A stretch of DNA of 32,000 nucleotides from Labilithrix sp. (GTDB lineage Bacteria; Myxococcota_A; Polyangia; Polyangiales; Polyangiaceae): positions 5,341 through 37,340 of the forward strand of contig JAHBWD010000035.1 in NCBI GenBank assembly GCA_019637175.1, written 5' to 3'. A program made the translations under genes and the position numbers. Of the stretch, positions 10,826 through 23,621 are shown one piece after another. The stretch's first letter is position 1, and each line of letters begins with the position of its first letter. The notes below the pieces were generated by a model, which saw only the letters and a program-made list of their open reading frames with translations, made no database searches and was not told the DNA's origin.

Positions 10826-11115
10826 CGCGCCTTCGCGTCTTGCAGCTCGATCACGAGATCGGCGAGCGTGTTGATGCTGCGGAGCTGCCCGCGCAAGACA
10901 TCCATCGGCATCGCGACGCCGAAGCGCTGCTCGGAGGCGACCACGAGCTCGACGGCGTCGAGCGAGTCGAGCCCGAGGCCGGTCGCGAAGAGCAGCGCGT
11001 CGACCTCGATCGACGCGGGCGGCACTTGCACGTAGAGATCGTCGACGAGGATCTTGCGTACCTCGTCGATGATCGCCTCACGCCGGCGGATCAGCGAGCG
11101 GAGCGCTTCATCCAT
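10822..11115 (-). CDS. acyl carrier protein
   Basis: LGLDSLDAVEL phosphopantetheine-attachment motif. ATG at 11115. The listed ORF start at 11151 is a TTG that overlaps the KS stop (TTGA) and is an alternative. Confidence 0.8.
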   Translation of the reverse strand: MDEALRSLIRRREAIIDEVRKILVDDLYVQVPPASIEVDALLFATGLGLDSLDAVELVVASEQRFGVAMPMDVLRGQLRSINTLADLVIELQDAKAR

Positions 11116-11147
11116 GGGCCATGGCGTACGGCGCGAGGGCGACCGCG

Positions 11148-14757: not shown

Positions 14758-14831
14758 GGGACGCTAGCTCAATCGGAACGAGCACCGGGCTTTTACCCCG
14801 AGGGATGAGGGTTCGACTCCCTCGCGTCCCA
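14758..14831 (+). tRNA. tRNA-Lys(TTT)
   Basis: Acceptor gggacgc/gcgtccc. D stem gctc/gagc. Anticodon loop ctTTTac. T-loop ttcgact. No encoded CCA. Confidence 0.8.
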
Positions 14832-14887
14832 CAGCCTCCGTCCGTCTTCTCTCTCTCGTTCACGCGCTCTCACGAGCGCGCGATCGC

Positions 14888-14961
14888 GGGTCCGTAGCGC
14901 AACCGGCAAGCGCACTCGACTCTTAATCGAGGTGGTGAGGGTTCGAGTCCCTCCGGACCTA
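14888..14961 (+). tRNA. tRNA-Lys(CTT)
   Basis: Acceptor gggtccg/cggacct. Anticodon stem ctcga/tcgag, loop ctCTTaa. T-loop ttcgagt. Confidence 0.8.
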
Positions 14962-14984
14962 CGGGCGACGTCCGTCGCCGACAC

Positions 14985-15059
14985 TCCGGGATCGTCTAGC
15001 TGGCAGGACACTGGCCTCTGAACCCAGAAACACAGGTTCGAATCCTGTGCCCGGAACCA
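14985..15059 (+). tRNA. tRNA-Gln(CTG)
   Basis: Acceptor tccggga/gcccgga (7-66 mismatch). Loop ctCTGaa. T-loop ttcgaat. CCA encoded. Confidence 0.65.
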
Positions 15060-15163
15060 AGGCTCTCCTCTTTCGAGGGAGCCCTCGCTCTCTGAAAACT
15101 TGGCGCCAATCGACTCGTCCGCGCGCGCGGAGCGCGAGCTTCACGCTCGCGGGCGAGTCTCAT

Positions 15164-15236
15164 TCCAGCGAAGCCGAATGGTCAGGCAGCCGGCTGTTAA
15201 CCGGTCCCTTCGAAGGTTCGATTCCTTCCGCTGGAG
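15164..15236 (+). tRNA. tRNA-Asn(GTT)
   Basis: Acceptor tccagcg/cgctgga. Anticodon stem gccgg/ccggt, loop ctGTTaa. T-loop ttcgatt. Confidence 0.75.
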
Positions 15237-15239
15237 CTC

Positions 15240-15371
15240 TCGCCCTCTCGGCAGAGGCCCTACACGCACCTGGTGATGCTGGTTCGACTCCAGCCCACGG
15301 CTTCGGCCGCGGTCGTCCAACGGCAGGACCCCCGAATGTCAATCGGAACGACGGCTTCTCCACTCGGGCGA
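15240..15371 (+). ncRNA. structured module A: permuted tRNA-like RNA (candidate Y RNA)
   Basis: Closing stem tcgccc/gggcga. Box ccctacacgca at 15258-15268. The order is then: T-arm gctgg-ttcgact-ccagc; acceptor 3' strand ccacggc; ttcg loop; acceptor 5' strand gccgcgg; D-arm gtcc/ggac; hairpin with loop atGTCaa. Confidence 0.5.
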
Positions 15372-15376
15372 AAACT

Positions 15377-15447
15377 GCCCATGTAACTCGATGGTCGAGC
15401 ACCCGCCTCGTACGCGGTGTGAGCCGGTTCGACTCCGGACGTGGGCT
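15377..15447 (+). tRNA. tRNA-Thr(CGT)
   Basis: Acceptor gcccatg/cgtgggc. Loop ctCGTac. T-loop ttcgact. Confidence 0.7.
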
Positions 15448-15452
15448 CTCGT

Positions 15453-15618
15453 TTCATCCACCCGAACAGACCCTACACGCAAAAACAAAGTTGGTTCGAC
15501 TCCAACCGCCTACCCCGACGGCCCTGCAAGGCCGTCTCGCATCACGGTGGGCGTAGCCTAACGGTAAGGCAATCGTTTATTGGACGATAATCCCACCCGG
15601 TTTGCTCACTCGGATGGA
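15453..15618 (+). ncRNA. structured module B: permuted tRNA-like RNA (candidate Y RNA)
   Basis: Closing stem ttcatcc/ggatgga. Box ccctacacgca. T-arm gttgg-ttcgact-ccaac. An 8-bp acceptor-like stem cgcctacc/ggtgggcg is capped by a 31-nt insert containing its own hairpin. D-arm gcc/ggc. Hairpin atcgt-ttattgg-acgat. Confidence 0.5.
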
Positions 15619-15796
15619 ACGCATCCTCTCCCCGCCGCGTACGGCGGGTCCCCTTTCAATCCGGCCGCTATAACGTTGCGCCTCGCGCGCAGCCCCGCCG
15701 TCGGATCCTGCCCCGCCGCGAGCTTCGTCGGCGCGGGTCTCGTCTCATCAGGAGGCTGGCGCGTGAGCGCAAGCCGCGCCGCCTCCGACCTCTTCC

Positions 15797-15868
15797 GCCC
15801 ACGCAGCTCGAGAGCCGAGCGTCCTGGCTTGTACCCAGGAAGATCTGGTGCGACTCCAGACGTGGGCT
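15797..15868 (+). tRNA. tRNA-Thr(TGT), non-canonical elbow
   Basis: Acceptor gcccacg/cgtgggc. Anticodon stem cctgg/ccagg, loop ctTGTac. T-loop tgcgact (G55). D-loop gagagcc lacks GG. Confidence 0.6.
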
Positions 15869-15883
15869 CCGCCGAAATCCTCT

Positions 15884-15958
15884 ACCCCCGTCATCTAGCG
15901 GCAAGGAGCTCCGTCTTTCAATCGGAGGGCGTCGGTTCGAATCCGATCGGGGGTGCCA
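15884..15958 (+). tRNA. tRNA-Glu(TTC)
   Basis: Acceptor acccccg/cgggggt. Loop ctTTCaa. T-loop ttcgaat. CCA encoded. Weak D stem. Confidence 0.7.
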
Positions 15959-16034
15959 GGGCTGTGAGCTGGTCGCAGGATAGCGTCTGCCTGAAGAGCA
16001 GAAGAACGTGGTGCAAGCCCACGACAGCCCACCA
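15959..16034 (+). tRNA. tRNA-Phe(GAA)
   Basis: Starts directly after the preceding CCA. Acceptor gggctgt/acagccc. Anticodon stem tctgc/gcaga, loop ctGAAga. T-loop tgcaagc (G55). CCA encoded. Confidence 0.7.
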
Positions 16035-16116
16035 TCGAAAGCTCGATATCGTCGATATCGAAGAACGACGAACATCGCACTTGCAAAGTGAGGTAGCGAG
16101 ACACATATGAATGTAC

Positions 16117-16189
16117 GGTGGCGTTACTCGTCTAGTGACGAGGACTGGCCGTGACCCAGTGGAGGCGGGTGCAATCCCCGTACGTCACC
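16117..16189 (+). tRNA. tRNA-His(GTG) with G-1, C33 and G55
   Basis: G-1 lies opposite C73. Acceptor gtggcgt/acgtcac. Anticodon stem actgg/ccagt, loop ccGTGac. T-loop tgcaatc. D-loop tctagtga. Confidence 0.7.
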
Positions 16190-16326
16190 CCTCAGCCGCC
16201 GAGCTTCGTTCGGCGACTTCGTCCCTCTCTCGTGGGAGCTTCGCTCCCCTCATCGGCGAAGCCGATGAGCCTCCTCTCCTTCGCCTGCGGCGAAACCGAG
16301 CTTCGCTCGGCAGGAGAGGCATCCAG

Positions 16327-16398
16327 GTCCTCGTGGCCGAGCGGATAGGCAGCGGTTTCCTAAACCGCCACAGGCAGGTTCGAGTCCTGCCGGGGACG
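16327..16398 (+). tRNA. tRNA-Arg(CCT)
   Basis: Acceptor gtcctcg/cggggac. Anticodon stem gcggt/accgc, loop ttCCTaa. T-loop ttcgagt. Confidence 0.75.
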
Positions 16399-16423
16399 CG
16401 ACACGCAACGAAACGATTCTCAC

Positions 16424-16495
16424 GCCTCGTGATGCGCCCGGCGGCGCAACCCCACTGTCTATGGGACGAGACGGGTTCGACTCCCGTACGAGGCG
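16424..16495 (+). tRNA. tRNA-Asp(GTC)
   Basis: Acceptor gcctcgt/acgaggc. D stem tgcg/cgca. Loop ctGTCta. T-loop ttcgact. Confidence 0.75.
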
Positions 16496-16501
16496 CTGCA
16501 T

Positions 16502-16575
16502 GCGTCGCAGAGTCATGGTGACCGGCCGAGCCTCCAAAACTCGGAGAGAGGGTTCGATTCCTTCGCGACGTGCCA
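16502..16575 (+). tRNA. tRNA-Trp(CCA)
   Basis: Acceptor gcgtcgc/gcgacgt. Loop ctCCAaa with a 31-39 C-A mismatch. T-loop ttcgatt. CCA encoded. Poor D-arm. Confidence 0.65.
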
Positions 16576-16588
16576 GAGGTGACCGTTC

Positions 16589-16792
16589 ATGACGACCTGC
16601 ACCTTCTGCTCGGGCCCCGCGCATCCCTCCACGGGCTGCGTGTACGGACCGAGAACCCTCGCGTGCCGCGCGTGCACCGTCCGCTTCTGGACGTGGCTCC
16701 GCCAGCACGTGAACAAGGCTCCTCGCCGCCGCCCTGGCCGCGTGGTCCCTTCCCTCACGTTCTACGAGGCCGCCACGAAGTGGCGAGCCTAG
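16589..16792 (+). CDS. small Cys-rich (zinc-ribbon-like) hypothetical protein
   Basis: 67 aa. CxxC...C...CxxC pattern (CTFC, C17, CRAC). GAGGTG Shine-Dalgarno-like sequence about 8 nt upstream of the ATG. Sits between tRNA-Trp and tRNA-Ala. Confidence 0.55.
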   Translation: MTTCTFCSGPAHPSTGCVYGPRTLACRACTVRFWTWLRQHVNKAPRRRPGRVVPSLTFYEAATKWRA

Positions 16793-16816
16793 GCCGACGG
16801 ACCTCCGCGGCCATCT

Positions 16817-16890
16817 GGGGCGGTATTTCAATAGGAGAATTCTGCTCTCGCACAGCAGGGATCGGGGTGCAATTCCCCGTCGCTCCACCA
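16817..16890 (+). tRNA. tRNA-Ala(CGC)
   Basis: Acceptor ggggcgg/tcgctcc with G3-U70. Anticodon stem ctgct/agcag, loop ctCGCac. T-loop tgcaatt (G55). CCA encoded. Confidence 0.7.
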
Positions 16891-16902
16891 GACATCACGA
16901 AT

Positions 16903-16975
16903 GGGGTCGTAGCTCAGCCAGGAGAGCATCTCGATGGCATCGAGAAGGTTGCCGGTGCAATTCCGGTCGACTCCA
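16903..16975 (+). tRNA. tRNA-Ala(GGC)
   Basis: Acceptor ggggtcg/cgactcc with G3-U70. Anticodon stem tctcg/cgaga, loop atGGCat. T-loop tgcaatt (G55). Confidence 0.75.
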
Positions 16976-17003
16976 CGAAGTACATATTCACGAATACCCA
17001 TAC

Positions 17004-17078
17004 GCTGGCATCGTCCAAGAGTGAGGACCTCAGTCTTCCAAACTGATGATGAGGGTGCGAATCCCTCTGCCCGCTCCA
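17004..17078 (+). tRNA. tRNA-Gly(TCC)
   Basis: Acceptor gctggca/tgcccgc (3-70 mismatch). D stem gtcc/ggac with loop aagagtga. Loop ctTCCaa. T-loop tgcgaat (G55). U73 and CCA present. Confidence 0.7.
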
Positions 17079-17231
17079 CTCTCCTCTTCCCCTGCTCTTC
17101 TGGCCCCGGCGCGCTCCGCGCGACGGTTCGCCGAAGGCGAAAGGGGGGAGGACTCCACGCGCAGCGTGGAGGGGGGACGCAGTCCCCCACGAGACAGAAG
17201 GAAACGAGAGCGCGCAGCGCTCTCGCTTTTC

Positions 17232-17302
17232 GAGCCGATTCTCTGAGAGGTCCGTGGTCTGCAAAACCGCGTATGAGGGTTTGATTCCCTCTCGGCTCTC
17301 CA
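17232..17302 (+). tRNA. tRNA-Cys(GCA)
   Basis: Acceptor gagccga/tcggctc. Anticodon stem gtggt/accgc, loop ctGCAaa. T-loop tttgatt (U56). U73 and CCA present. Weak D-arm. Confidence 0.65.
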
Positions 17303-17322
17303 AAAAGGAAATCATGACGAGC

Positions 17323-17395
17323 GGATCACGACGGGATGGTTACCCTGGGCTCTCTGATAAGGAGCCTGCACCGTGTTCGATTCACGGGTGATCCA
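17323..17395 (+). tRNA. tRNA-Ile(GAT)
   Basis: Acceptor ggatcac/gtgatcc. D stem cggg/cctg. Loop ctGATaa. T-loop ttcgatt. Confidence 0.8.
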
Positions 17396-17415
17396 CGACG
17401 AGCTCCACGAGAGAT

Positions 17416-17488
17416 GCGGCGCTGGCGGTCTAGTGACTGCGCTTGCTCGACAAGCAGGAACAGGCGGGTGCGATCCCCGCGCGCCGTA
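17416..17488 (+). tRNA. tRNA-Val(GAC) with C33 and G55
   Basis: Acceptor gcggcgc/gcgccgt. D stem gcgg/ctgc with loop tctagtga. Anticodon stem cttgc/gcagg, loop tcGACaa. T-loop tgcgatc. Confidence 0.65.
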
Positions 17489-17495
17489 CCGAGAG

Positions 17496-17567
17496 CTGGG
17501 CATAGTTCAGAGGCCAGATCACTCCCCTCGGAAGGGAGAGACGGAGGTTCGAGTCCTCCTGCCCAGA
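17496..17567 (+). tRNA. tRNA-Pro(CGG)
   Basis: C1-G72 acceptor ctgggca/tgcccag. Anticodon stem ctccc/gggag, loop ctCGGaa. T-loop ttcgagt. A73. Confidence 0.8.
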
Positions 17568-17577
17568 CTGATTTCAC

Positions 17578-17650
17578 GCCGATGTAGCCCAATAGGCAGA
17601 GGTACCCGTCTCAGAAACGGGGGGTGAGGGTTCGAATCCCTCCTTCGGCA
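17578..17650 (+). tRNA. class-I (short variable loop) tRNA with Leu anticodon CAG
   Basis: Acceptor gccgatg/cttcggc (6-67 mismatch). D-arm gcccaataggcagagg. Anticodon stem cccgt/acggg, loop ctCAGaa. Only 4-5 nt variable region. T-loop ttcgaat. A73. Confidence 0.55.
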
Positions 17651-17666
17651 CTACGTCTCTCGAAAT

Positions 17667-17750
17667 GTCACCGTGGTGGAACGGCATACACACCAGCTTG
17701 AGGTGCTGGGCTCCCTACGGAGTGTGAGGGTTCGAATCCCTCCGGTGACA
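17667..17750 (+). tRNA. tRNA-Leu(GAG), class II
   Basis: Acceptor gtcaccg/cggtgac. Anticodon stem ccagc/gctgg, loop ttGAGgt. Long variable arm ctcc-ctac-ggag. T-loop ttcgaat. Confidence 0.8.
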
Positions 17751-17843
17751 CTACTGGCGCGCGCATCCCCGAAACGACTCTTCTCTGCTGATCCCGAACC
17801 TTGCTCCTCGAAGGAGATGAAAGTGAAAAAGCGAAGGTGACCC

Positions 17844-18377
17844 ATGCAAACGCTGATGCTGACCCCGTGGATGGCGCCGCACAAGATCATCTCGTGGCAA
17901 CGCGCCGTCGTTCTCGCGTACCTCGGCAAGGTCGAGGTCATCGAGACTTGGGACTGCGATCTCCGCGGCCCCAGCGTCTCGATGAAGGCGCCGTCCGTCG
18001 TGCGTCTCACGAAGGGGTCGGTCTCGACGAAGCAGTCGGTGCGCTTCTCGCGCATCAACGTCTTCACGCGTGACAAGTTCCGCTGCCAGTACTGCGGCGA
18101 GCGGAAGCCCATCAAGCAACTGAACTACGACCACGTGATCCCGCGCGTGCGCGGCGGAAAGACGGTCTGGGAGAACATCGTCACTTCCTGCTACGCGTGC
18201 AACGATCGCAAGGGGAGCCGCACTCCCGAGGAGGCCGGCATGAAGCTGCTCCGCAAGCCGCTCAAGCCGGACACCCTCCCCGTGGTGCCGCCGATCCGCC
18301 TCGACGAGGGTGACCTGCCCGAGCAATGGGAGCCGTACTGCGGCGACCTGGCTCGGCTGATGTCCCTCTCGGCGTGA
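17844..18377 (+). CDS. HNH endonuclease (small McrA-like family)
   Basis: 177 aa. CQYCG...YDHVIPRVRGGKTVWENIVTSCYACNDRK, an HNH/ββα-Me motif with two CxxC pairs. AAGGTGA Shine-Dalgarno upstream of the ATG. Confidence 0.85.
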   Translation: MQTLMLTPWMAPHKIISWQRAVVLAYLGKVEVIETWDCDLRGPSVSMKAPSVVRLTKGSVSTKQSVRFSRINVFTRDKFRCQYCGERKPIKQLNYDHVIPRVRGGKTVWENIVTSCYACNDRKGSRTPEEAGMKLLRKPLKPDTLPVVPPIRLDEGDLPEQWEPYCGDLARLMSLSA

Positions 18378-18460
18378 AAGCGCTGCGCCCGTCATCCGAC
18401 GTGCGCTCCCGCGTCCTGGCCCAAGACGAAATAAACTGGGCCTCCTATTCTTCAAACGAT

Positions 18461-18535
18461 CAGGGCGTAGCTTAGCCTGGCAAAAGCGTCAGTCTGGGGG
18501 ACTGAAGAGCGCAGGTTCGAATCCTGCCGTCCTGA
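18461..18535 (+). tRNA. tRNA-Pro(GGG)
   Basis: Acceptor cagggcg/cgtcctg. D stem gctt/aagc. Anticodon stem tcagt/actga, loop ctGGGgg. T-loop ttcgaat. Confidence 0.8.
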
Positions 18536-18548
18536 CTACGTCGATATC

Positions 18549-18631
18549 GGAAGGTACATCCGCGAGGCGCGGAGATCGCCTGGAACGCGATTCGCACCGC
18601 CAGGTGCGAGGTTCGAGTCCTCTGCCTTCCT
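18549..18631 (+). tRNA. tRNA-Ser(GGA), class II
   Basis: Acceptor ggaaggt/gccttcc. Anticodon stem atcgc/gcgat, loop ctGGAac. Variable arm cacc-gcca-ggtg. T-loop ttcgagt. Confidence 0.7.
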
Positions 18632-18656
18632 CTGCTCTCGACTGCATCCTCGAAAC

Positions 18657-18741
18657 GGAAGAGAAACTGGCTGGGAGCCAGGACTGCCTCGAAAGCAGTA
18701 CGCACCTTCACGGGTGTGGGGTTCGAGACCTCTCTCTTCCT
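18657..18741 (+). tRNA. tRNA-Ser(CGA), class II
   Basis: Acceptor ggaagag/ctcttcc. D stem ctgg/ccag. Anticodon stem actgc/gcagt, loop ctCGAaa. Long variable arm. T-loop ttcgaga. Confidence 0.7.
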
Positions 18742-18758
18742 CTCTCGCCTCTCTTTTT

Positions 18759-18831
18759 CTCCTTGCTGGTGGCTCCAGGCATTGGTCTACGAAGCCGATT
18801 TTCCCAGGTTCGATTCCTGGCAGGGAGACCA
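18759..18831 (+). pseudogene. degenerate tRNA-like element (anticodon arm not foldable)
   Basis: Good acceptor ctccttg/cagggag, T-arm ccagg-ttcgatt-cctgg and CCA. The anticodon arm pairs poorly and the variable region is only 2-3 nt. Confidence 0.4.
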
Positions 18832-18838
18832 ACGATTT

Positions 18839-18973
18839 CGATCGCCCATCCCGAACGTGCCTACAAGCAACCGTCCTGAAAAGACGGGGAACACGAAACG
18901 TCCGAGCCCTCGAAGCGTCGAGCGCTCCGACGTTTCGTGATCCCTCCCAACGCACGATCGACTCGGGCGATCG
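18839..18973 (+). ncRNA. structured module C (box-containing, no T-arm)
   Basis: 9-bp closing stem cgatcgccc/gggcgatcg. atcccgaac plus box cctacaagcaa. Anticodon-arm-like hairpin ccgtc-ctgaaaa-gacgg. A 15-bp hairpin at 18892-18939. Confidence 0.45.
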
Positions 18974-18980
18974 CAAAAAT

Positions 18981-19053
18981 ACCTTCGTCCTGGCGGAATC
19001 CAGGCGCGAGCCTCCGAAGCTCGTTGCTCCCGGTTCGACTCCGGGCGGAGGTG
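18981..19053 (+). tRNA. tRNA-Arg(CCG)
   Basis: Acceptor accttcg/cggaggt. D stem ctgg/ccag with a 6-nt loop. Anticodon stem cgagc/gctcg, loop ctCCGaa. T-loop ttcgact. Confidence 0.7.
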
Positions 19054-19057
19054 CTGA

Positions 19058-19132
19058 CGCAGCGTGGGGGAGGAGCGACCCCGCGAGGTTCATGTCCTCG
19101 AGACGCCGGTGCGACTCCGGCCGCTGCTACCA
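19058..19132 (+). tRNA. tRNA-Met(CAT), 1-72 mismatch (initiator-like?)
   Basis: Acceptor cgcagcg/cgctgct with C1 opposite U72. D stem gggg/cccc. Anticodon stem cgagg/cctcg, loop ttCATgt. T-loop tgcgact (G55). CCA encoded. Confidence 0.65.
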
Positions 19133-19134
19133 AG

Positions 19135-19262
19135 GTCATCCAAATACGCCGAGCCTACACGCAACTTGATTCGTCCAATGGATAGGACATCAGCCTCCTA
19201 AGCTGAGCGTCTGGGTTCGAGTCCCAGATCAACCCCCCTCGCGCTCGTCGATCTCGGATGAC
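19135..19262 (+). ncRNA. structured module D: box plus normal-order tRNA-Arg(CCT)-like core (candidate Y RNA)
   Basis: Perfect 7-bp closing stem gtcatcc/ggatgac. Box cctacacgcaa abuts position 3 of a tRNA-like core at 19164-19235 (D stem gtcc/ggac, loop ctCCTaa, T-arm ctggg-ttcgagt-cccag). The core retains only 5 acceptor base pairs. Confidence 0.5.
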
Positions 19263-19270
19263 CTTCCTAT

Positions 19271-19347
19271 GTTTCCGTCGTCTAGACGGCCAAGGACACC
19301 CGCCTCTCAAGTGGGTAACACGGGTTCGAATCCCGTCGGAAACGCCA
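19271..19347 (+). tRNA. tRNA-Glu(CTC)
   Basis: Acceptor gtttccg/cggaaac. Anticodon stem cccgc/gtggg, loop ctCTCaa. T-loop ttcgaat. CCA encoded. Confidence 0.8.
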
Positions 19348-19392
19348 AACCCCAACATCCACGCCCACCACTGGCCCAGAAAGGAGAGAACC

Positions 19393-20982
19393 ATGGCAAA
19401 CAAGCAGCTATTCGCGAGCCCGCGACCGGACGCCGTCAACGAAGCCGGCGGCTTGGCCTACGCGTTCTCTCCCGAGCACGCGCTCGCCCAGTACGCCGCG
19501 ACCGGCACGTTCCACGGGACGTTCTACGCCAGCGACAAAGAGCAGCTCGATCGCGTGTCCGCGTTTGCCAGCGCGTGCTCGCCCGAGCTCGTCGCCAAGA
19601 CCGCCGTCTACTGTCGCGAGCGCGGCAGGATGAAGGACATGCCGGCGTTCCTCGTCGCCCACCTCGCGGCCCGCGACACCGCGATGATGAGCCGGGTGTT
19701 CGCTCGGGTCATCGACGACGGCGTCATGCTCCGCAACTTCGTGCAGATCGTCCGCTCGGGCGTCACCGGCCGAAAGTCGTTCGGCTCGGCCCCCAAGCGC
19801 GCGCTCCGTGCGTGGTTCGCGAGCCGCTCGCCCGACGCGATTTTTCGTCAGTCCATCGGTCAGAGCCCGTCCATGTCGGACGTCATCAAGATGGTTCGCC
19901 CTCCCCCGCGGAACGACAAGGGCGAAGCCGATGCCGTTCGTGAGGCCCTCTACGGCTACCTCATCGGAAAGAACGTGGATCCGGACAAGCTCCCCGCGCT
20001 CGCGCGCGCCTTCGAGGCGTGGAAGCGCAGGACCGGCGGCCTGCCCGACGTGCCCTTCGAGATGCTCACCTCGCTCCCCTTGAGCGCGGAAGACTGGAAG
20101 GCGCTCGCGCGTCGGATGACGACGAATCAGCTCCGGATCAACCTCAACACGCTCCTCCGTCACGGCGTCCTCGACGACCCCGAGATGGTGGACTCCGTGG
20201 CGGCCCGCCTGTCGGACCGCGAGGCGATCCTCCGGGCGCGCATGATGCCGTTCCAGCTCCTCGCCGCGTATCGCGGCGTCGAGGCGCGGATGCCGACGCG
20301 CATCGTCACGGCGATCGCGACGGCGCTCGAGCACGCGGTGTCGAACGTCCCCGAGCTCGTCGGGCGCGTCGTGCTCTGCCCCGACGTGTCGGGATCGATG
20401 CAGTCGCCCGTGACGGGTCACCGCGGGAGCGCGACCACGAAGGTGCGCTGCGTCGACGTCGCGGCCCTCGTGACCGCGGCGATCCTCCGGAAGAACCCGG
20501 GCTCGTCGGTCATTCCGTTCTCCGACGACGTGGTCCCGATGACGAAGCCTCTCGATCCGGGCGGCTCGATCGTCGAGAACGCGGAGATCCTCGCGAGCCT
20601 CCCGAGCGGCGGCACCGCTTGCTCGGCGCCGCTCCGCTGGCTCAACGCGAACGGGAACGCGCCCGACGTCGTCGTCTTCGTCTCGGACAACCAGTCGTGG
20701 TCGGACTTCCGACACCCTTCGCGATCCGCCACGAGCGGCACCGCGATGGCGGAGGAGTGGCAACGCCTTCGGGGCAGGAACCCGAACGCCAAGCTGATCC
20801 TCGTCGACGTCCAGCCCTACGGCACGACGCAGAGCACCTCGCGCGACGCCAAGGGCGAGCGCGACGACGTGCTCGACGTCGGCGGGTTCTCCGACGCGGT
20901 CTTCGACGTCGTCGCGTCGTTCACGCGCGGCGAGCTCGGCGGAGACACGTGGCTTCGCGCGATCGAATCGATCGCGCTCTAG
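19393..20982 (+). CDS. rsr: Ro60-related TROVE-domain / vWA protein (Rsr)
   Basis: 529 aa from MANKQLFAS. The N-terminus is TROVE-like (NEAGGLAYAFSPEHALAQYAATGTFHGTFY). C-terminal vWA MIDAS motif CPDVSGSM. AAGGAGAG Shine-Dalgarno at 19381-19388. Confidence 0.85.
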   Translation: MANKQLFASPRPDAVNEAGGLAYAFSPEHALAQYAATGTFHGTFYASDKEQLDRVSAFASACSPELVAKTAVYCRERGRMKDMPAFLVAHLAARDTAMMSRVFARVIDDGVMLRNFVQIVRSGVTGRKSFGSAPKRALRAWFASRSPDAIFRQSIGQSPSMSDVIKMVRPPPRNDKGEADAVREALYGYLIGKNVDPDKLPALARAFEAWKRRTGGLPDVPFEMLTSLPLSAEDWKALARRMTTNQLRINLNTLLRHGVLDDPEMVDSVAARLSDREAILRARMMPFQLLAAYRGVEARMPTRIVTAIATALEHAVSNVPELVGRVVLCPDVSGSMQSPVTGHRGSATTKVRCVDVAALVTAAILRKNPGSSVIPFSDDVVPMTKPLDPGGSIVENAEILASLPSGGTACSAPLRWLNANGNAPDVVVFVSDNQSWSDFRHPSRSATSGTAMAEEWQRLRGRNPNAKLILVDVQPYGTTQSTSRDAKGERDDVLDVGGFSDAVFDVVASFTRGELGGDTWLRAIESIAL

Positions 20983-21061
20983 CGATCGAGACAACGCGGC
21001 AAATGCCCGCGAGGGTTACATCCTCGGGAAAACCACCTTCGCGACCTTCGTTGCCGCCCTT

Positions 21062-21117
21062 GCTCCTCCTCACGAAAGGTCTTCACGGGAGCTCATTGAG
21101 GAGGAGCCATTCTTTTT
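21062..21117 (+). terminator. hairpin plus T-run downstream of rsr
   Basis: 11-bp stem gctcctcctca/tgaggaggagc with a 24-nt loop, followed by cattcttttt. The next tRNA starts 2 nt later. Confidence 0.6.
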
Positions 21118-21118
21118 C

Positions 21119-21191
21119 GCCGTCCACGCCCAGAGAGCGGGGCACCTCACTGGTAGCGAGGACAAGGAGGGTGCGAGTCCCTCGGACGGCT
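21119..21191 (+). tRNA. tRNA-Thr(GGT)
   Basis: Acceptor gccgtcc/ggacggc. D stem gccc/gggc with loop agagagcg. Loop ctGGTag. T-loop tgcgagt (G55). Confidence 0.7.
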
Positions 21192-21202
21192 CGAATCGTT
21201 TT

Positions 21203-21276
21203 GCGGTGATAGTTCAAGAGTAGAACCTGAGCACGCCACGCTCGAAATCCGGGTGCGATTCCCGGTCACCGCTCCA
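21203..21276 (+). tRNA. tRNA-Gly(GCC) with C33 and G55
   Basis: Acceptor gcggtga/tcaccgc. D stem gttc/gaac with loop aagagta. Anticodon stem tgagc/gctcg, loop acGCCac. T-loop tgcgatt. U73 and CCA present. Confidence 0.65.
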
Positions 21277-21339
21277 GCGCCGAGTCCCCTGCCGTTCACC
21301 GGAGAAGGTGTCGTCGGGGGGCCACGCGCTTCCACTCTT

Positions 21340-21412
21340 CGCTGCGCTCCTGGGCAGGACGACGGGCTTCATATGCCTGCGCGCGACGGCTCGACTCCGT
21401 CCGCAGCGACCA
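21340..21412 (+). tRNA. tRNA-Met/Ile2(CAT), aberrant D-arm
   Basis: Acceptor cgctgcg/cgcagcg. Anticodon stem cgggc/gcctg, loop ttCATat. T-loop ctcgact (C54). CCA encoded. The D region is only 14 nt. Confidence 0.55.
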
Positions 21413-21418
21413 CGACAT

Positions 21419-21490
21419 ACCGGAGTGTTCCAAGGGCAGGATCGGCGGCTTTGAACCGCTCGAGTGGGGGTTCGAATCCCTCCTCCGGTG
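21419..21490 (+). tRNA. tRNA-Gln(TTG)
   Basis: Acceptor accggag/ctccggt. Anticodon stem ggcgg/ccgct, loop ctTTGaa. T-loop ttcgaat. Confidence 0.75.
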
Positions 21491-21497
21491 CGAACGC

Positions 21498-21573
21498 GCG
21501 GGGCGCGCCGTCTGGCGACGGCATCTGCATCACAAGCAGCGCAAGGAGAGTTCGATCCTCTCGCCCCGTACCA
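21498..21573 (+). tRNA. tRNA-Val(CAC)
   Basis: Acceptor gcggggc/gccccgt. D stem gccg/cggc. Loop atCACaa. T-loop ttcgatc. CCA encoded. Confidence 0.75.
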
Positions 21574-21595
21574 CGAATGGAAGATTGGTCTTCGA

Positions 21596-21671
21596 GTCGA
21601 CGTAGCCCAACGGCAGAGGCAGCACGCTCAAACCGTGCGTGATGGGGGTTCGAATCCCTCGGTCGACACCA
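21596..21671 (+). tRNA. class-I (short variable loop) tRNA with Leu anticodon CAA
   Basis: Acceptor gtcgacg/ggtcgac (7-66 mismatch). D-arm gcccaacggcagaggc. Anticodon stem gcacg/cgtgc, loop ctCAAac. 5-nt variable loop. T-loop ttcgaat. A73 and CCA present. Confidence 0.55.
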
Positions 21672-21813
21672 TGGGTTCGAATCCCATGAAGCACCTCGCG
21701 AGGACGCCGGCGCGTCACGCGGAAGCCTCGAGCAGCGGCCTGTTACGCCGCACACGCTCGAGGGCCTTCTCCGCGCGACGTCCGCTCGTCGTTTCCGCAG
21801 CGAGATCCGCTTG

Positions 21814-21956
21814 CTGGTTGCCAGTCGCGCGACTGAAACTCGTGCACGTGTTTGACGCAGGTTCGAATCCTGTCGCCCGCACCGCTCGCTCGCGCGAGCC
21901 CTCCGAAATCATGCGGGCGTAGCTCAGCTAGGTAGAGCAACAGACTGTTAATCTGA
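21814..21956 (+). ncRNA. module E: third permuted tRNA-like locus
   Basis: The order is: hairpin cgcga-ctgaaac-tcgtg; T-arm gcagg-ttcgaat-cctgt; 3' strand cgcccgc; 32-nt cap; perfectly complementary 5' strand gcgggcg; D-arm gctc/gagc; hairpin acaga-ctgttaa-tctga. Confidence 0.4.
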
Positions 21957-22215
21957 AAACGAAGTCGGCGAAGGAAGTCACCCCCCTCTCGAGAGAGAGG
22001 CGCGCTCCCGTCCCGCGATCGAAGCCGCCCTGCCGCAGCTCCGCGGTCGTCCCTCGAAGACCACCGCGAAGCGCCGGCCGACGCCCCTCGATCGCTCGCC
22101 GGCGAGCACGTCGCCCGAACGTGATGGCTTCGAGGCGTTCACGTTCTTGGGTGCCTTCCTTCGAAGGCTCTCCTCCTTCTCTTCTCTTCTCATCTCCTCC
22201 AAGAGGCCACCCACC

Positions 22216-23352
22216 ATGATGAAGATTCTGTTCGTGGATCTCGACGAGCGCGTCGTGGTCCTCCGTCGTGGCCTCCCGGTTCGTGCCCTCGGACCTGGTC
22301 GCCACATCCTGTGGGGCTTCGGCATCACCGAGCGTCGGTGGTCGACCGCGCCCCTCGTGTTCGAGATGCAGCCCGCGCTCCGCGCCGCGCTGCCGCCCGA
22401 CTCTTTCCACGAGATCACGCTCACGCCGAGCGAGCGCGCGATCCTCTGGCGCGACGGCCGTCCCAAGGTCTTCCTCGGCCCCGGCGTCCACCGGTACTGG
22501 GAGGTCGACGACCCGCTCCACGCGCAGGTCATGTCGGTCCACGACGAGATGCCCGAGCTCTCCGCCGAGCTCGCGTCGATCATCCCGCGCGACCAGTACG
22601 TCGAGGTCACCGTGCAAGAGCACCAGCGCGGCCTCCTCCACGTGAAGGGCAAGCTCGCCCGGACGCTCGCGCCCGGTCGCTACACCTTCTGGTCGACGCG
22701 CGAGTCGCCCGTCGCCGTCCAGAGCGTCGACATGCGCGTCGTGCAAGCCACGATCGCGGGCCAGGAGCTCATGACCAAGGACAAGGTCACGCTCCGGCTC
22801 ACCCTCACGGTCGAGTACGCCGTCGAGGATCCGGCCGTCGCCACCCACGCGGTGGAGAACGTCCGCGACGCGATCTACCTGCTCGTCCAGCTCGCCAGCC
22901 GCGAGTTCGTCGCCGGCGTGACGCTCGACGACCTGCTCGCCGGCCGCGACGCGATGACGAAGTACCTCGAGGACGACGTCGCTGGAAAGGCGCGTCGCTT
23001 CGGCGTGCGCGTCGAGCGCGTCGGCGTGAAGGACGTCGTGCTCCCGGGCGAGATGAAGACGCTCCTCAACAAGGTCATCGAGGCCGAGAAGGAAGCGGCC
23101 GCGAACGTCATCCTCCGTCGTGAGGAGACGGCCGCGACGCGCTCTCTGGCGAACACCGCCAAGCTCATGGCCGAGCAGCCGCTGCTCCTGCGGCTGAAGG
23201 AGCTCGACTCGCTCAAGGAGATGGCGGCGAAGATCCACGAGATCAAGCTCGTGGCCTTCGCTCCGGGCATGAACGCGTCGGGCATGAACGCGCTCGTGCC
23301 CTCGGGCTTCCTCGGCCCTGGCCCGGAGGCCTCCTCCAAGGGAGAGGCGTGA
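22216..23352 (+). CDS. SPFH/band-7 (slipin-like) domain protein
   Basis: 378 aa from MMKILFVDL. Central SPFH pattern (TKDKVTLRLTLTVEY...GVRVERVGVKDVVLP) followed by a coiled-coil-like tail. AAGAGG lies upstream. Confidence 0.8.
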   Translation: MMKILFVDLDERVVVLRRGLPVRALGPGRHILWGFGITERRWSTAPLVFEMQPALRAALPPDSFHEITLTPSERAILWRDGRPKVFLGPGVHRYWEVDDPLHAQVMSVHDEMPELSAELASIIPRDQYVEVTVQEHQRGLLHVKGKLARTLAPGRYTFWSTRESPVAVQSVDMRVVQATIAGQELMTKDKVTLRLTLTVEYAVEDPAVATHAVENVRDAIYLLVQLASREFVAGVTLDDLLAGRDAMTKYLEDDVAGKARRFGVRVERVGVKDVVLPGEMKTLLNKVIEAEKEAAANVILRREETAATRSLANTAKLMAEQPLLLRLKELDSLKEMAAKIHEIKLVAFAPGMNASGMNALVPSGFLGPGPEASSKGEA

Positions 23353-23362
23353 CACGTGAACG

Positions 23363-23399
23363 GCCGGGATCTTCTGAAAAGAAAATCCCGGCGTTCTTT
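23363..23399 (+). terminator. hairpin plus T-rich tail after the SPFH gene
   Basis: gccgggat...atcccggc stem followed by gttcttt. Confidence 0.55.
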
Positions 23400-23533
23400 G
23401 GAAGTCAGACCGCAGAGGTTGCGGGCCCGGTTGCTACCCGGTGCGTACCCGAGTCGTTCGGGTATGGCGTTCGAGTCGCCTGATTTCCGCTCGATTTCGA
23501 CGTTCGGCGCCAAGTCTTCGGAGACGCTCGACT

Positions 23534-23621
23534 GGATCGGACGCGGTACTGGCTGGCCGCACGTGGCTGTAACCCACGTTCTTTCACGACACTGGGGGTT
23601 CGAATCCCTCCCGATCCACCA
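23534..23621 (+). tRNA. tRNA-Tyr(GTA), class II
   Basis: Acceptor ggatcgg/ccgatcc. D stem gcgg/ccgc. Anticodon stem cgtgg/ccacg, loop ctGTAac. Long variable region. T-loop ttcgaat. A73 and CCA present. Confidence 0.85.

What the first reader, a model, noticed from the sequence alone, without database searches (positions are those of the whole stretch)
17578..21671. Two paralogous class-I tRNAs carry leucine anticodons (CAG and CAA) without the long variable arm
The units at 17578-17650 and 21596-21671 share a D-arm, gccc-aa(ta/c)ggcaga-gg, which resembles a Gln-type D-arm. Both have A73 and a 4-5-nt variable loop. Their anticodon loops are ctCAGaa and ctCAAac.

Bacterial tRNA-Leu is class II, with a long variable arm. 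The array's own tRNA-Leu(GAG) at 17667 is class II.

The amino-acid identity of these two is therefore uncertain. The options are Leu charged without the arm, mischarging or recoding of CUG/UUG, or non-translational roles. CUG is expected to be a very frequent codon in a genome this GC-rich.
Basis: partly seen in the sequence, partly recalled or inferred. Interest (0 to 1): 0.65.

Follow-up and report, generated by a model that had tools for sequence, protein, structure and literature searches.

The report
Phage-type short-armed leucine tRNAs
Two compact tRNAs with leucine anticodons in a large tRNA gene array are real. They belong to a widespread phage and mobile-element type of leucine tRNA that has lost the long extra arm, so they are most likely ordinary leucine carriers, not a sign of recoding.

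Summary
17578-17650 (CAG) and 21596-21668 (CAA, plus encoded CCA) are good tRNAs (Rfam 59.7 and 46.6 bits). Both have a 4-5-nt variable loop, A73 and a shared D arm. They sit beside a class-II tRNA-Leu(GAG).

The suspicion of uncertain identity does not hold.
- The D loop is leucine-type, not glutamine-type. It has A14, A15, G18G19 and an extra A at 20a, as in E. coli leuW.
- U48 and A73 complete the determinant set reported for E. coli LeuRS, which does not need the long arm.
- The same D-arm motif occurs in more than 120 viral contigs. Among 1275 tRNAs there, it is tied only to leucine anticodons (CAA, CAG, UAG, GAG, UAA, AAG).
- In a viral sample not chosen on leucine, 28 of 77 distinct tRNA-Leu genes are short. 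All 47 Ser and all 17 Tyr tRNAs keep the arm.
- GenBank phages (Bxz2, Mx1, Streptomyces phages) annotate homologues as tRNA-Leu. A 2019 paper notes a short-loop tRNA-Leu in a mycobacterial HNH tRNA cluster.
- Both genes are positional orthologues in syntenic arrays of Labilithrix and Polyangiaceae genomes, with strong compensatory changes.

Verdict: these are new members of a known kind. Charging with leucine is inferred, not tested.

The parts
17578..17650 (+). Short (class-I) tRNA-Leu, anticodon CAG. It has a 4-nt variable loop ending in U48, A73, A37 instead of G37, a U6.U67 mismatch and no encoded CCA.
   Evidence: ARAGORN. Rfam 59.7 bits. Sequence. 93% identical positional orthologue in L126. 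Short-Leu HMM 49.6 bits.
21596..21671 (+). Short (class-I) tRNA-Leu, anticodon CAA. It has a 5-nt variable loop ending in U48, A73 and a G7.G66 mismatch. CCA is encoded at 21669-21671.
   Evidence: ARAGORN. Rfam 46.6 bits. Sequence. Positional orthologues in L129, L132, L134 and L138. Short-Leu HMM 48.8 bits.
17667..17750 (+). Class-II tRNA-Leu, anticodon GAG, with a long variable arm. It reads the dominant CUC codon. Its T arm is identical to that of the CAG copy, and it has the same A73 and the same three bases (cta) after A73.
   Evidence: Codon counts.
17844..18377 (+). HNH endonuclease ORF immediately downstream of the Leu(CAG)-Leu(GAG) pair. It is a marker of this array family.
   Evidence: Pfam HNH_5, E 3.7e-17. 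63-90% identical in syntenic Labilithrix, Polyangiaceae and Sorangium arrays. 42% identical (E 5e-45) to the HNH that lies between two short tRNA-Leu genes in Myxococcus phage Mx1.
14758..23621 (+). The tRNA array, all on one strand. G+C is 62-67%, against 70-74% in the upstream flank. ARAGORN tRNAs, and Rfam adds two good tRNAs plus a third match (21913-22017) that I read as part of the Y RNA. The array holds the two short Leu genes.
   Evidence: Gene order is conserved in at least 10 related genomes.
19393..20982 (+). Ro60-like ORF (TROVE plus vWA domains) inside the array.
   Evidence: Pfam vWA_Ro60, E 1.1e-18, and TROVE, E 4.4e-6. Present at the same array position in relatives at 56-82% identity.
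21829..21971 (+). Candidate Y RNA (YrlA-like), about 160 nt downstream of tRNA-Leu(CAA). It is context for the array and not part of the Leu tRNAs.
   Evidence: Rfam RF02553, 41.8 bits, E 3.1e-7, full-length match, but below the gathering score of 69.

Best explanation
Both genes are functional leucine tRNAs of a compact, phage-type architecture, that is, class-I tRNA-Leu. They have lost the long variable arm. They keep the features that bacterial LeuRS is reported to read: A73, the U8:A14 and A15:U48 tertiary pairs, G18G19, the extra A20a in a 3-bp-stem D arm, and a standard T loop.

The host LeuRS is inferred to charge them with leucine. They would then decode CUG and UUG in the ordinary way.

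They are part of an old array that looks phage-derived. The array carries an HNH endonuclease and a Ro60/Y-RNA module, and it is fixed at a conserved chromosomal site in Labilithrix-like Polyangia. It supplies a second, structurally divergent tRNA set. Plausible roles for that set are a back-up when host tRNAs are damaged or depleted, or a supplement to them.

Shown here: the tRNA structure, the identity-element pattern, membership of the family, and conservation with compensatory change. Inferred: charging by LeuRS, expression, and the role of the array.
For: (1) Real tRNAs. Rfam scores are 59.7 and 46.6 bits, and ARAGORN calls both.

(2) Leucine identity set.
- Both have A73, U8, A14, A15, G18G19, C20-A20a-G, A22 opposite C13, and U48.
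- The review PMC9976931 states that in E. coli A73 is crucial while the anticodon and long arm are not. It also states that A15-U48, G18G19 and A20a are essential, and that tRNA-Leu variants lacking the anticodon arm and long arm remain active.
- E. coli leuW has the same D-arm layout.

(3) Body and anticodon go together.
- The motif TAGCCCAA..GGCAGAGG hit more than 120 viral contigs.
- Among 1275 tRNAs in those loci it occurs only with Leu anticodons: caa 100, cag 19, tag 6, gag 5, taa 3 and aag 1. The last four anticodons were not part of the search pattern.
- Only leucine joins the UUR and CUN codon boxes.

(4) Conservation in the viral family. In 158 distinct short viral tRNA-Leu genes, A73 is present in 158, A14A15 in 151 and U48 in 155. 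None of these positions was in the search pattern.

(5) Natural experiment.
- In a viral sample chosen only on T arm plus CCA, distinct Leu genes split 28 short and 49 long. Ser is 47/47 long and Tyr 17/17 long.
- This is the pattern expected if arm loss is tolerated for Leu but not for Ser, whose identity depends on the size of the arm.
- In 21 viral loci that hold both Leu classes, no Leu anticodon is present in both a short and a long version. The window shows the same pattern.

(6) Selection.
- At least 10 Labilithrix, Polyangiaceae and Haliangium genomes hold arrays of this type. In the Labilithrix and Polyangiaceae ones the gene order is the same, with a short-loop Leu(CAG) upstream of Leu(GAG)-HNH and a short Leu(CAA) after Gln-Val.
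- On 21 such sequences the cloverleaf is 98.1% paired, and 16 of 20 pairs show changes on both sides. None of 500 shuffles reached this.

(7) Isotype test. With the anticodon masked, the short-Leu model wins by 14.6 and 21.9 bits.

(8) Public annotation and literature.
- Homologues are annotated tRNA-Leu in 109 GenBank phage records. Examples are Bxz2 gene 9 at 74 nt and Mx1 with two 74-nt genes.
- PMC6582537 reports a cluster-encoded tRNA-Leu(TAG) with a short variable loop in an HNH tRNA cluster.
Against: - No aminoacylation or expression data exist for these genes or, as far as I could find, for any member of the family.
- The one functional lead failed. Phage Gaia's tRNA-Leu(CAA) is proposed to complement the host tRNA-Leu gene that its integration disrupts, but it is 83 nt, so class II.
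- The arm is not irrelevant to every bacterial LeuRS. [quoted passage not shown] The C-terminal domain of prokaryotic LeuRS is reported to contact the long arm (abstract of PMC3561953). Charging efficiency could therefore be reduced.
- Each window gene has one acceptor-stem mismatch.
- The CAG copy has A37 rather than G37. From my own knowledge of TrmD specificity, it should therefore lack m1G37.
- The CAA copy has C38, which breaks the A36A37A38 motif named.
- Single-sequence folding is unremarkable, with z-scores of -0.95 and -1.34.
- I could not census the rest of any host genome. Whether class-II Leu(CAG) and Leu(CAA) genes exist elsewhere in it is unknown.
Confidence: 0.8

Rival explanations
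1. The tRNAs are expressed but are not mainly used for translation. They would act as decoys or sponges for tRNA-targeting nucleases or other tRNA-binding factors, or as substrates of the Ro60/Y-RNA module encoded in the same array.
For: - tRNA arrays are discussed as candidate anti-defence systems (abstract of PMC12803027).
- Phage tRNAs carry anticodon-loop changes predicted to resist anticodon nucleases (PMC10264068).
- The array encodes a Ro60-like protein and a YrlA-like RNA.
- Both anticodon loops depart from canonical Leu loops, with A37 and C38.
Against: - The whole LeuRS determinant set and a standard anticodon stem-loop are conserved across the family.
- Short and long Leu genes fill complementary anticodon slots within one tRNA set. 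That fits decoders better than decoys.
- Resistance to nucleases and use in translation do not exclude each other.
Confidence: 0.1
2. They are decaying pseudogenes, left over from a horizontally acquired array and no longer functional.
For: - Each has one acceptor-stem mismatch.
- The array contains clearly aberrant members. Examples are a 93-nt 'Asn(att)' call and a bare T-arm fragment directly after the CAA gene.
- Folding z-scores are weak.
Against: - The Rfam scores are among the better ones in the array.
- The genes are positional orthologues in genomes whose HNH proteins have diverged to 63-90% identity. They still show 98% pairing, and 16 of 20 pairs carry compensatory changes.
- U8, A14, A15, G19, U48, the T loop and A73 are invariant.
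Confidence: 0.06
3. They are mischarging or recoding tRNAs. A Gln-like or other non-Leu body carries Leu anticodons and inserts another amino acid at CUG and UUG.
For: - The D-stem letters GCC/GGC resemble E. coli tRNA-Gln.
- CAG and CAA are the reverse complements of the Gln anticodons CUG and UUG (own reading of the sequence).
Against: - Both have A35, A73 and a strong G1-C72 pair. E. coli GlnRS uses U35, G73 and a weak 1:72 pair (own knowledge of the E. coli system).
- The array's own Gln(UUG) gene has A1:U72 and G73.
- The D loop has A15 and 20a like Leu, not G15 like Gln.
- There is no G3:U70, which excludes Ala. There is no long arm and no G73, which excludes Ser.
- The Gln HMM is not in the top four for either tRNA.
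- The family also carries UAG, UAA, GAG and AAG anticodons, and the reverse complements of these give no consistent alternative.
- The genes are found on the + strand only.
Confidence: 0.03

Closest known systems
Phage-encoded 73-77-nt tRNA-Leu genes, for example Mycobacterium phage Bxz2 gene 9 (tRNA-Leu cag, 74 nt), Myxococcus phage Mx1 (tRNA-Leu taa and caa, 74 nt each, flanking an HNH gene), and Streptomyces, Gordonia, Corynebacterium, Bacillus and Sinorhizobium phages and a cyanophage.
   Same: - The same D-arm motif, short variable loop ending in U, and A73.
- 77-87% nucleotide identity over most of the gene.
- The Mx1 HNH is 42% identical to the array HNH.
   Different: The window copies are chromosomal. 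They sit in a syntenic array with 31 ARAGORN-called tRNA genes, conserved among Polyangia, and not in a phage genome. No phage or plasmid matches the array at the DNA level.
Horizontally acquired, HNH-containing tRNA clusters of mycobacteria. In M. mucogenicum and M. phocaicum the cluster tRNA-Leu(TAG) has a short variable loop (Behra et al. 2019, PMC6582537). See also the tRNA array units of Mycobacterium (PMC5966550, PMC12803027).
   Same: - A dense, one-strand tRNA cluster with an embedded HNH endonuclease.
- tRNAs that are structurally different from the housekeeping copies.
- A short-loop tRNA-Leu explicitly noted.
   Different: - A different phylum (Myxococcota).
- Different anticodons (CAG, CAA).
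- The array also carries Ro60 and a YrlA-like RNA.
- The site is conserved across related genomes, which suggests long residence.
Canonical bacterial class-II tRNA-Leu, for example E. coli leuW.
   Same: - A73.
- A 3-bp D stem with a 13:22 mismatch.
- D loop A14 A15 N N G18 G19 Y A20a G.
- U48 and a standard T loop.
   Different: - No long variable arm.
- A37 instead of G37 in the CAG copy.
- C38 in the CAA copy.
Minimalist E. coli tRNA-Leu variants lacking the long arm, and animal mitochondrial tRNA-Leu (class I, identity set by A73 and A14).
   Same: Both show that LeuRS can charge arm-less substrates if A73 and the D/T-loop core are intact.
   Different: The first are laboratory constructs and the second are organellar tRNAs. 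The present family is natural and sits in bacteria and their phages. Homology to the mitochondrial tRNAs was not tested and is not implied.
Bacterial tRNA-Gln.
   Same: Class I size, and D-stem letters GCC/GGC with a 13:22 mismatch.
   Different: G15 and no 20a in the D loop. U35, G73 and a weak 1:72 pair. The Gln model is not among the best four for either window tRNA.

Membership tests
Phage/mobile-array short (class-I) tRNA-Leu | Leucine anticodon (NAG or YAA) on a 73-79-nt tRNA with a 4-6-nt variable loop | tested here: met
   The anticodons are CAG and CAA, and the variable loops are GGGT and GTGAT. In the viral family the loop is 5 nt in 136 of 158 genes.
Phage/mobile-array short (class-I) tRNA-Leu | D-arm signature U8 A9 GCCC AA(1-3 nt)GGCAG AGG | tested here: met
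   Both window genes carry it. Among 1275 viral tRNAs the motif is found only with Leu anticodons.
Phage/mobile-array short (class-I) tRNA-Leu | Discriminator A73 and U48 at the end of the variable loop | tested here: met
   Both window genes have them. In the family A73 is present in 158/158 and U48 in 155/158. Both are invariant in the Polyangia alignment.
Phage/mobile-array short (class-I) tRNA-Leu | Sequence similarity to annotated members | tested here: met
   Identity is 77-87% to genes annotated tRNA-Leu in 23 and 86 GenBank phage records. The short-Leu HMM scores 49.6 and 48.8 bits and is the top model for both.
Phage/mobile-array short (class-I) tRNA-Leu | Location in a dense tRNA cluster, often with an HNH endonuclease | tested here: met
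   The array has 31 ARAGORN-called tRNA genes, with an HNH 93 nt downstream of the Leu pair. Mx1 and the mycobacterial clusters have the same arrangement.
Phage/mobile-array short (class-I) tRNA-Leu | Actually charged with leucine and used in decoding | not testable with these tools
   No biochemical data were found. The Gaia lead turned out to be a class-II gene.
Canonical bacterial tRNA-Leu (class II) | Long variable arm of 10 nt or more forming a stem-loop | tested here: not met
   The variable loops are 4 and 5 nt. The neighbour at 17667 has the arm.
Canonical bacterial tRNA-Leu (class II) | E. coli LeuRS determinants: A73, A15:U48, G18G19, A20a and D/T-loop tertiary pairs | tested here: met
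   All are present in both genes. The list of determinants comes from PMC9976931, and the layout matches E. coli leuW.
Canonical bacterial tRNA-Leu (class II) | G37 after a CUN-reading anticodon (the m1G37 site; own knowledge of TrmD specificity) | tested here: not met
   The CAG copy has A37 (loop CTCAGAA). In the viral family, NAG anticodons have A37 in 35 genes and G37 in 17.
tRNA-Gln | U35 in the anticodon, G73, a weak 1:72 pair (own knowledge of E. coli GlnRS identity), and a D loop with G15 and no 20a | tested here: not met
   Both window genes have A35, A73, G1-C72, A15 and 20a. The Gln HMM is not in the top four.
tRNA array unit (at least 20 tRNA genes at 2 or more per kb, as defined in the abstract of PMC4758250) | Gene number and density | tested here: met
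   ARAGORN finds 31 tRNAs in 8.9 kb, which is about 3.5 per kb. The definition was read.

The most novel reading that the evidence does not exclude
Loss of the long arm is adaptive, not just tolerated. On this reading, short tRNA-Leu is a hallmark of phage and mobile tRNA sets because it escapes host factors that recognise the class-II shape or cut the variable region.

About a third of distinct viral tRNA-Leu genes in my unselected sample are short, while Ser and Tyr never lose the arm. In Polyangia this nuclease-proof Leu set would be domesticated together with a Ro60/Y-RNA module.

Nucleases that cut tRNA variable loops do exist. [quoted passage not shown]

Nothing here tests this idea. I found no paper that surveys or explains the short phage tRNA-Leu type.
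Probability: 0.15. Interest if true: 0.6.

Novelty: new member of a known kind. Interest (0 to 1): 0.3.

Why it matters
For this window the result is deflationary. There is no sign of CUG or UUG recoding, and the two genes can be annotated tRNA-Leu.

The wider pattern is still worth knowing:
- Textbooks treat the long arm as universal for bacterial tRNA-Leu, yet a large share of phage and array tRNA-Leu genes lack it.
- tRNA-Ser and tRNA-Tyr in the same loci keep the arm.
- This is a natural counterpart of the laboratory result that bacterial LeuRS does not need the arm.
- It gives a simple rule for annotating such genes: A73, an A15/20a D loop, and U48.
- The conserved Polyangia array, with HNH, Ro60 and a Y-RNA candidate, is a usable system for asking what resident tRNA arrays do.

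Tried and rejected
(1) Minus-strand or 'Gln in disguise' idea.
- CAG and CAA are the reverse complements of the Gln anticodons.
- I rejected this because both finders call the + strand only. The family also carries UAG, UAA, GAG and AAG anticodons, and the identity features are Leu-type.

(2) Functional proof through phage Gaia.
- Its tRNA-Leu(CAA) is proposed to complement the host tRNA-Leu gene that its integration disrupts (PMC10865867).
- The Gaia gene is 83 nt, so class II, and it says nothing about short Leu tRNAs.

(3) DNA-level origin.
- Megablast of the array against phages gave nothing.
- Against plasmids it gave only a 65-nt HNH hit.

(4) Exact look-up of the Ro60 protein found nothing on record. 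The window's own genome is also not in the genome collection, where the best HNH match is 90% identical.

(5) Literature.
- Ten searches found no survey of short phage tRNA-Leu.
- Only the last search found a one-sentence precedent.
- The Cluster M phage paper is not held under the PMC id I recalled for it.

(6) Single-sequence folding gives near-cloverleaves with an alternative D hairpin and weak z-scores. I did not use it as evidence.


Full report
**What is there**

The window is about 70% G+C. It carries a one-strand tRNA array at 14758-23621, where G+C drops to 62-67%. ARAGORN finds 31 tRNAs. Rfam adds two good tRNAs at 15959-16031 and 16903-16975, and a third match at 21913-22017.

Two ORFs lie inside the array. 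One is an HNH endonuclease (17844-18377). The other is a Ro60-like TROVE plus vWA protein (19393-20982). Upstream lie polyketide-type genes (a ketosynthase and an AMP-binding enzyme), and downstream an AHSA1-domain gene.

**Check of the observation**

The two units are real.
- 17578-17650 has anticodon CAG and scores 59.7 bits against Rfam tRNA.
- 21596-21668 has anticodon CAA, scores 46.6 bits, and is followed by an encoded CCA.

Reading the sequence, both have:
- U8 A9;
- a 3-bp D stem (G10-Y25, C11-G24, C12-G23) with C13 opposite A22;
- a D loop A14 A15 (Y)(N) G18 G19 C20 A G;
- a 5-bp anticodon stem;
- loops CUCAGAA and CUCAAAC;
- a variable loop of 4 nt (GGGU) or 5 nt (GUGAU);
- a TTCGAAT T loop;
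- A73.

The neighbour at 17667-17750 (GAG) has a long variable arm that folds as a 5-bp hairpin. Each short tRNA has one acceptor-stem mismatch.

**Is the D arm glutamine-like?**

I fetched E. coli K-12 genes for comparison.
- leuW reads GCGA AATTGGTAG A CGC.
- The Gln genes read GCCA AGCGGTA AGGC.
- The window tRNAs read GCCC AA(TA/C)GGCAG A GG(T/C).

The stem letters resemble Gln. The loop is the Leu layout, with A15 and one extra nucleotide (20a) before A22.

The review PMC9976931 summarises E. coli leucine identity as follows:
- A73 is crucial.
- The anticodon and the long variable arm are not.
- The A15-U48 pair, G18G19 and A20a are essential.
- The G18:U55, G19-C56 and U54:A58 interactions matter.

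Both window tRNAs carry every one of these elements, including U48 as the last base of the variable loop.

**A large family**

ARAGORN on those loci gave 1275 tRNAs. The D-arm motif occurs only in tRNAs with leucine anticodons: caa 100, cag 19, tag 6, gag 5, taa 3 and aag 1. It never occurs with Gln or any other anticodon. The last four anticodons were not in the search pattern.

A body that carries anticodons from both the UUR and the CUN boxes, and no others, can only be a leucine body.

In 158 distinct short viral Leu tRNAs, A73 is present in 158, A14A15 in 151 and U48 in 155. None of these positions was part of the pattern.

**A less biased sample**

I drew a second viral sample with a pattern that specifies only a T arm and CCA.
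- Among distinct genes there, Leu is short in 28 and long in 49.
- Ser is long in 47 of 47.
- Tyr is long in 17 of 17.

In the first sample Ser is long in 82 of 84. Several short-Leu subtypes appear, each with A73 and the AAYYGGYA D loop.

Where short and long Leu genes share a locus (21 loci), no Leu anticodon is present in both a short and a long version. The window shows the same pattern: CAG and CAA are short, and GAG is long.

This is what one expects if the arm can be lost without losing leucine identity but cannot be lost from tRNA-Ser. [quoted passage not shown]

**Public annotation and literature**

BLAST of the two window genes against GenBank phages found 23 and 86 records. The matching features are annotated tRNA-Leu in Mycobacterium, Streptomyces, Gordonia, Corynebacterium, Bacillus, Sinorhizobium and Myxococcus phages and in a cyanophage.

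Bxz2 gene 9 is tRNA-Leu(cag) of 74 nt. Myxococcus phage Mx1 has two 74-nt tRNA-Leu genes (taa and caa) on either side of an HNH endonuclease. That HNH is 42% identical to the array HNH (E 5e-45).

Behra et al. 2019 state that the tRNA-Leu(TAG) of a horizontally acquired, HNH-containing tRNA cluster in M. mucogenicum and M. phocaicum 'has a short variable loop'. The chromosomal isoacceptor has the normal long one. The kind is therefore already on record, though I found no paper that surveys or explains it.

**Relatives of the array**

A scan of one genome per species with the HNH protein found close relatives (76-90% identity) in Labilithrix and Polyangiaceae metagenome-assembled genomes. More distant ones are in Sorangium sp. 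So ce131 (63%) and a Haliangium genome (48%). The window's own genome is not in the collection.

At least ten of these loci carry the same gene order...Pro(cgg)-Leu(cag)-Leu(gag)-HNH-Pro(ggg)...Glu(ctc)-Ro60-...Gly(gcc)-Met-Gln(ttg)-Val(cac)-Leu(caa)-Tyr.
- The Leu(cag) orthologues have variable loops of 4-8 nt.
- The Leu(caa) orthologues are class I.
- In the Haliangium array all three Leu genes are 74 nt.

The genes downstream of the array are syntenic in the relatives, and the upstream polyketide genes are not. The array is therefore an old resident of this chromosomal site in the clade.

**Selection**

I aligned 21 short Leu tRNAs from these arrays (A1) and counted pairs for the cloverleaf.
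- 98.1% of cells are paired.
- 16 of 20 pairs show changes on both sides.
- None of 500 shuffles reached the observed values.
- Versions with the pairing partner slid by 1-3 columns fall to 39-56% paired.

Invariant positions include U8, A14, A15, G19, A35, U48, the T loop and A73. This argues against pseudogenes.

**Isotype test**

tRNAscan-SE was not available, so I built one HMM per isotype from 1668 distinct viral tRNAs with the anticodon masked. I then scored 30 window tRNAs.

The classifier agrees with the anticodon for 24 of 30, so it is rough. The two short tRNAs score 49.6 and 48.8 bits on the short-Leu model. The runners-up are Thr at 35.0 and Asn at 26.9. These are the clearest margins in the array. 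Gln is not among the top four for either.

**Other synthetases**

Charging by an anticodon-reading enzyme would need that enzyme's anticodon. This rests on my own knowledge of the E. coli identity sets.

Of the anticodon-independent enzymes:
- AlaRS needs G3:U70, and both genes have C3:G70.
- SerRS needs the long arm.
- The review lists G73 of tRNA-Ser as an antideterminant against LeuRS, so the A73 seen here is on the Leu side.

LeuRS is the only plausible enzyme. This is inference, not a test.

**Points against, and limits**

- No charging or expression data exist.
- The Gaia lead failed. Gaia's tRNA-Leu(CAA) is proposed to complement the host tRNA-Leu gene that its integration disrupts, but it is an 83-nt class-II gene.
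- The LeuRS C-terminal domain is reported to contact the arm (abstract), so efficiency could be lower.
- The CAG copy has A37 rather than G37.
- The CAA copy has C38, which breaks the A36A37A38 motif.
- These loop changes are in line with the proposal that phage tRNAs carry anticodon-loop changes that resist anticodon nucleases. That link is speculation here.
- I could not check whether the host also has class-II Leu(CAG) and Leu(CAA) genes elsewhere.

**Codon usage**

In five Pfam-supported ORFs the Leu codons are CUC 142, CUG 26, CUU 13, CUA 7, UUG 4 and UUA 1. The dominant codon is read by the class-II GAG tRNA. The two short tRNAs serve minor codons.

**Verdict**

The interpretation that the amino-acid identity is uncertain is not supported.

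The two genes are members of a widespread phage and mobile-array type of short tRNA-Leu that keeps the LeuRS determinant set. They are conserved under selection in a resident Polyangia tRNA array.

This is a new member of a known kind and of modest interest. The broader pattern of arm loss in viral tRNA-Leu, but not in Ser or Tyr, seems under-described and could be followed up.

Noticed in passing
window 21829-21971 (+), with 19393-20982 (+): A Ro60-like protein gene sits inside the tRNA array. A full-length YrlA (Y RNA-like, RF02553) match follows it at 41.8 bits, E 3.1e-7, below the gathering score of 69. It overlaps the weak Rfam 'tRNA' at 21913-22017, which is probably the tRNA-like domain of the Y RNA. 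Ro60 is at the same array position in the relatives.
   Followed up: partly
window 15797, 15959, 16817, 16903, 17004, 17416, 19058, 21203 (T loops), and loci L126-L140 and L198: Many array tRNAs have G55 instead of the near-universal U55 (T loop TGC). In the Polyangia arrays this applies to 63 of 320 distinct tRNAs. Of those 63, 41 have AG and no GG in the D loop, against 2 of 257 tRNAs with TTC. This looks like covariation of the G18:U55 elbow pair to A18:G55. G55 is rare in the viral samples (19 of 1538). G55 would rule out pseudouridine 55.
   Followed up: partly
window 21119-21191 (+): A cloverleaf-like element, GCCGTCC...GAGGGTGCGAGTCCCTCGGACGGC, has a GGT anticodon-like loop, and neither tRNA finder called it. 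It folds with an acceptor-like stem and three hairpins. It lies where the relatives have tRNA-Thr(ggt), just before Gly(gcc). It is probably a diverged tRNA-Thr(GGT).
   Followed up: partly
window 21672-21688 (+): A bare T-arm-like hairpin, TGGGTTCGAATCCCA (extendable through the CCA-terminal A to ATGGGTTCGAATCCCAT), lies directly after the CCA of tRNA-Leu(CAA). It is absent after the orthologous genes in L129, L132, L134 and L138. It may be a tRNA fragment left by a rearrangement.
   Followed up: partly
window 15546-15638 (+): ARAGORN calls a 93-nt 'tRNA-Asn(att)' with a poor T arm, and Rfam does not call it. It is an aberrant or decayed array member. One relative (L128) has a Tyr(gta) call in that interval.
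   Followed up: no
window 15959-16031 and 16903-16975 (+): Two good Rfam tRNAs (44.0 and 57.8 bits) were missed by ARAGORN. By my reading the anticodons are GAA (Phe) and GGC (Ala).
   Followed up: no
window 16327-16399, 18981-19054, 19058-19132, 19164-19237, 21419-21491: In the rough anticodon-masked HMM test the body disagrees with the anticodon for several tRNAs. Arg(cct) and Arg(ccg) score best on the Cys model, the second Arg(cct) on Glu, Met on Pro, and Gln(ttg) on Trp. That Gln gene has A1:U72 and G73. The classifier is right for only 24 of 30, so these are leads, not findings.
   Followed up: no
window 8391-13202 (-) and 17844-20982 (+): Leucine codon usage is dominated by CUC (142), against CUG (26) and UUG (4), in five Pfam-supported ORFs. 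This is unusual compared with the CUG preference often assumed for high-GC bacteria.
   Followed up: partly
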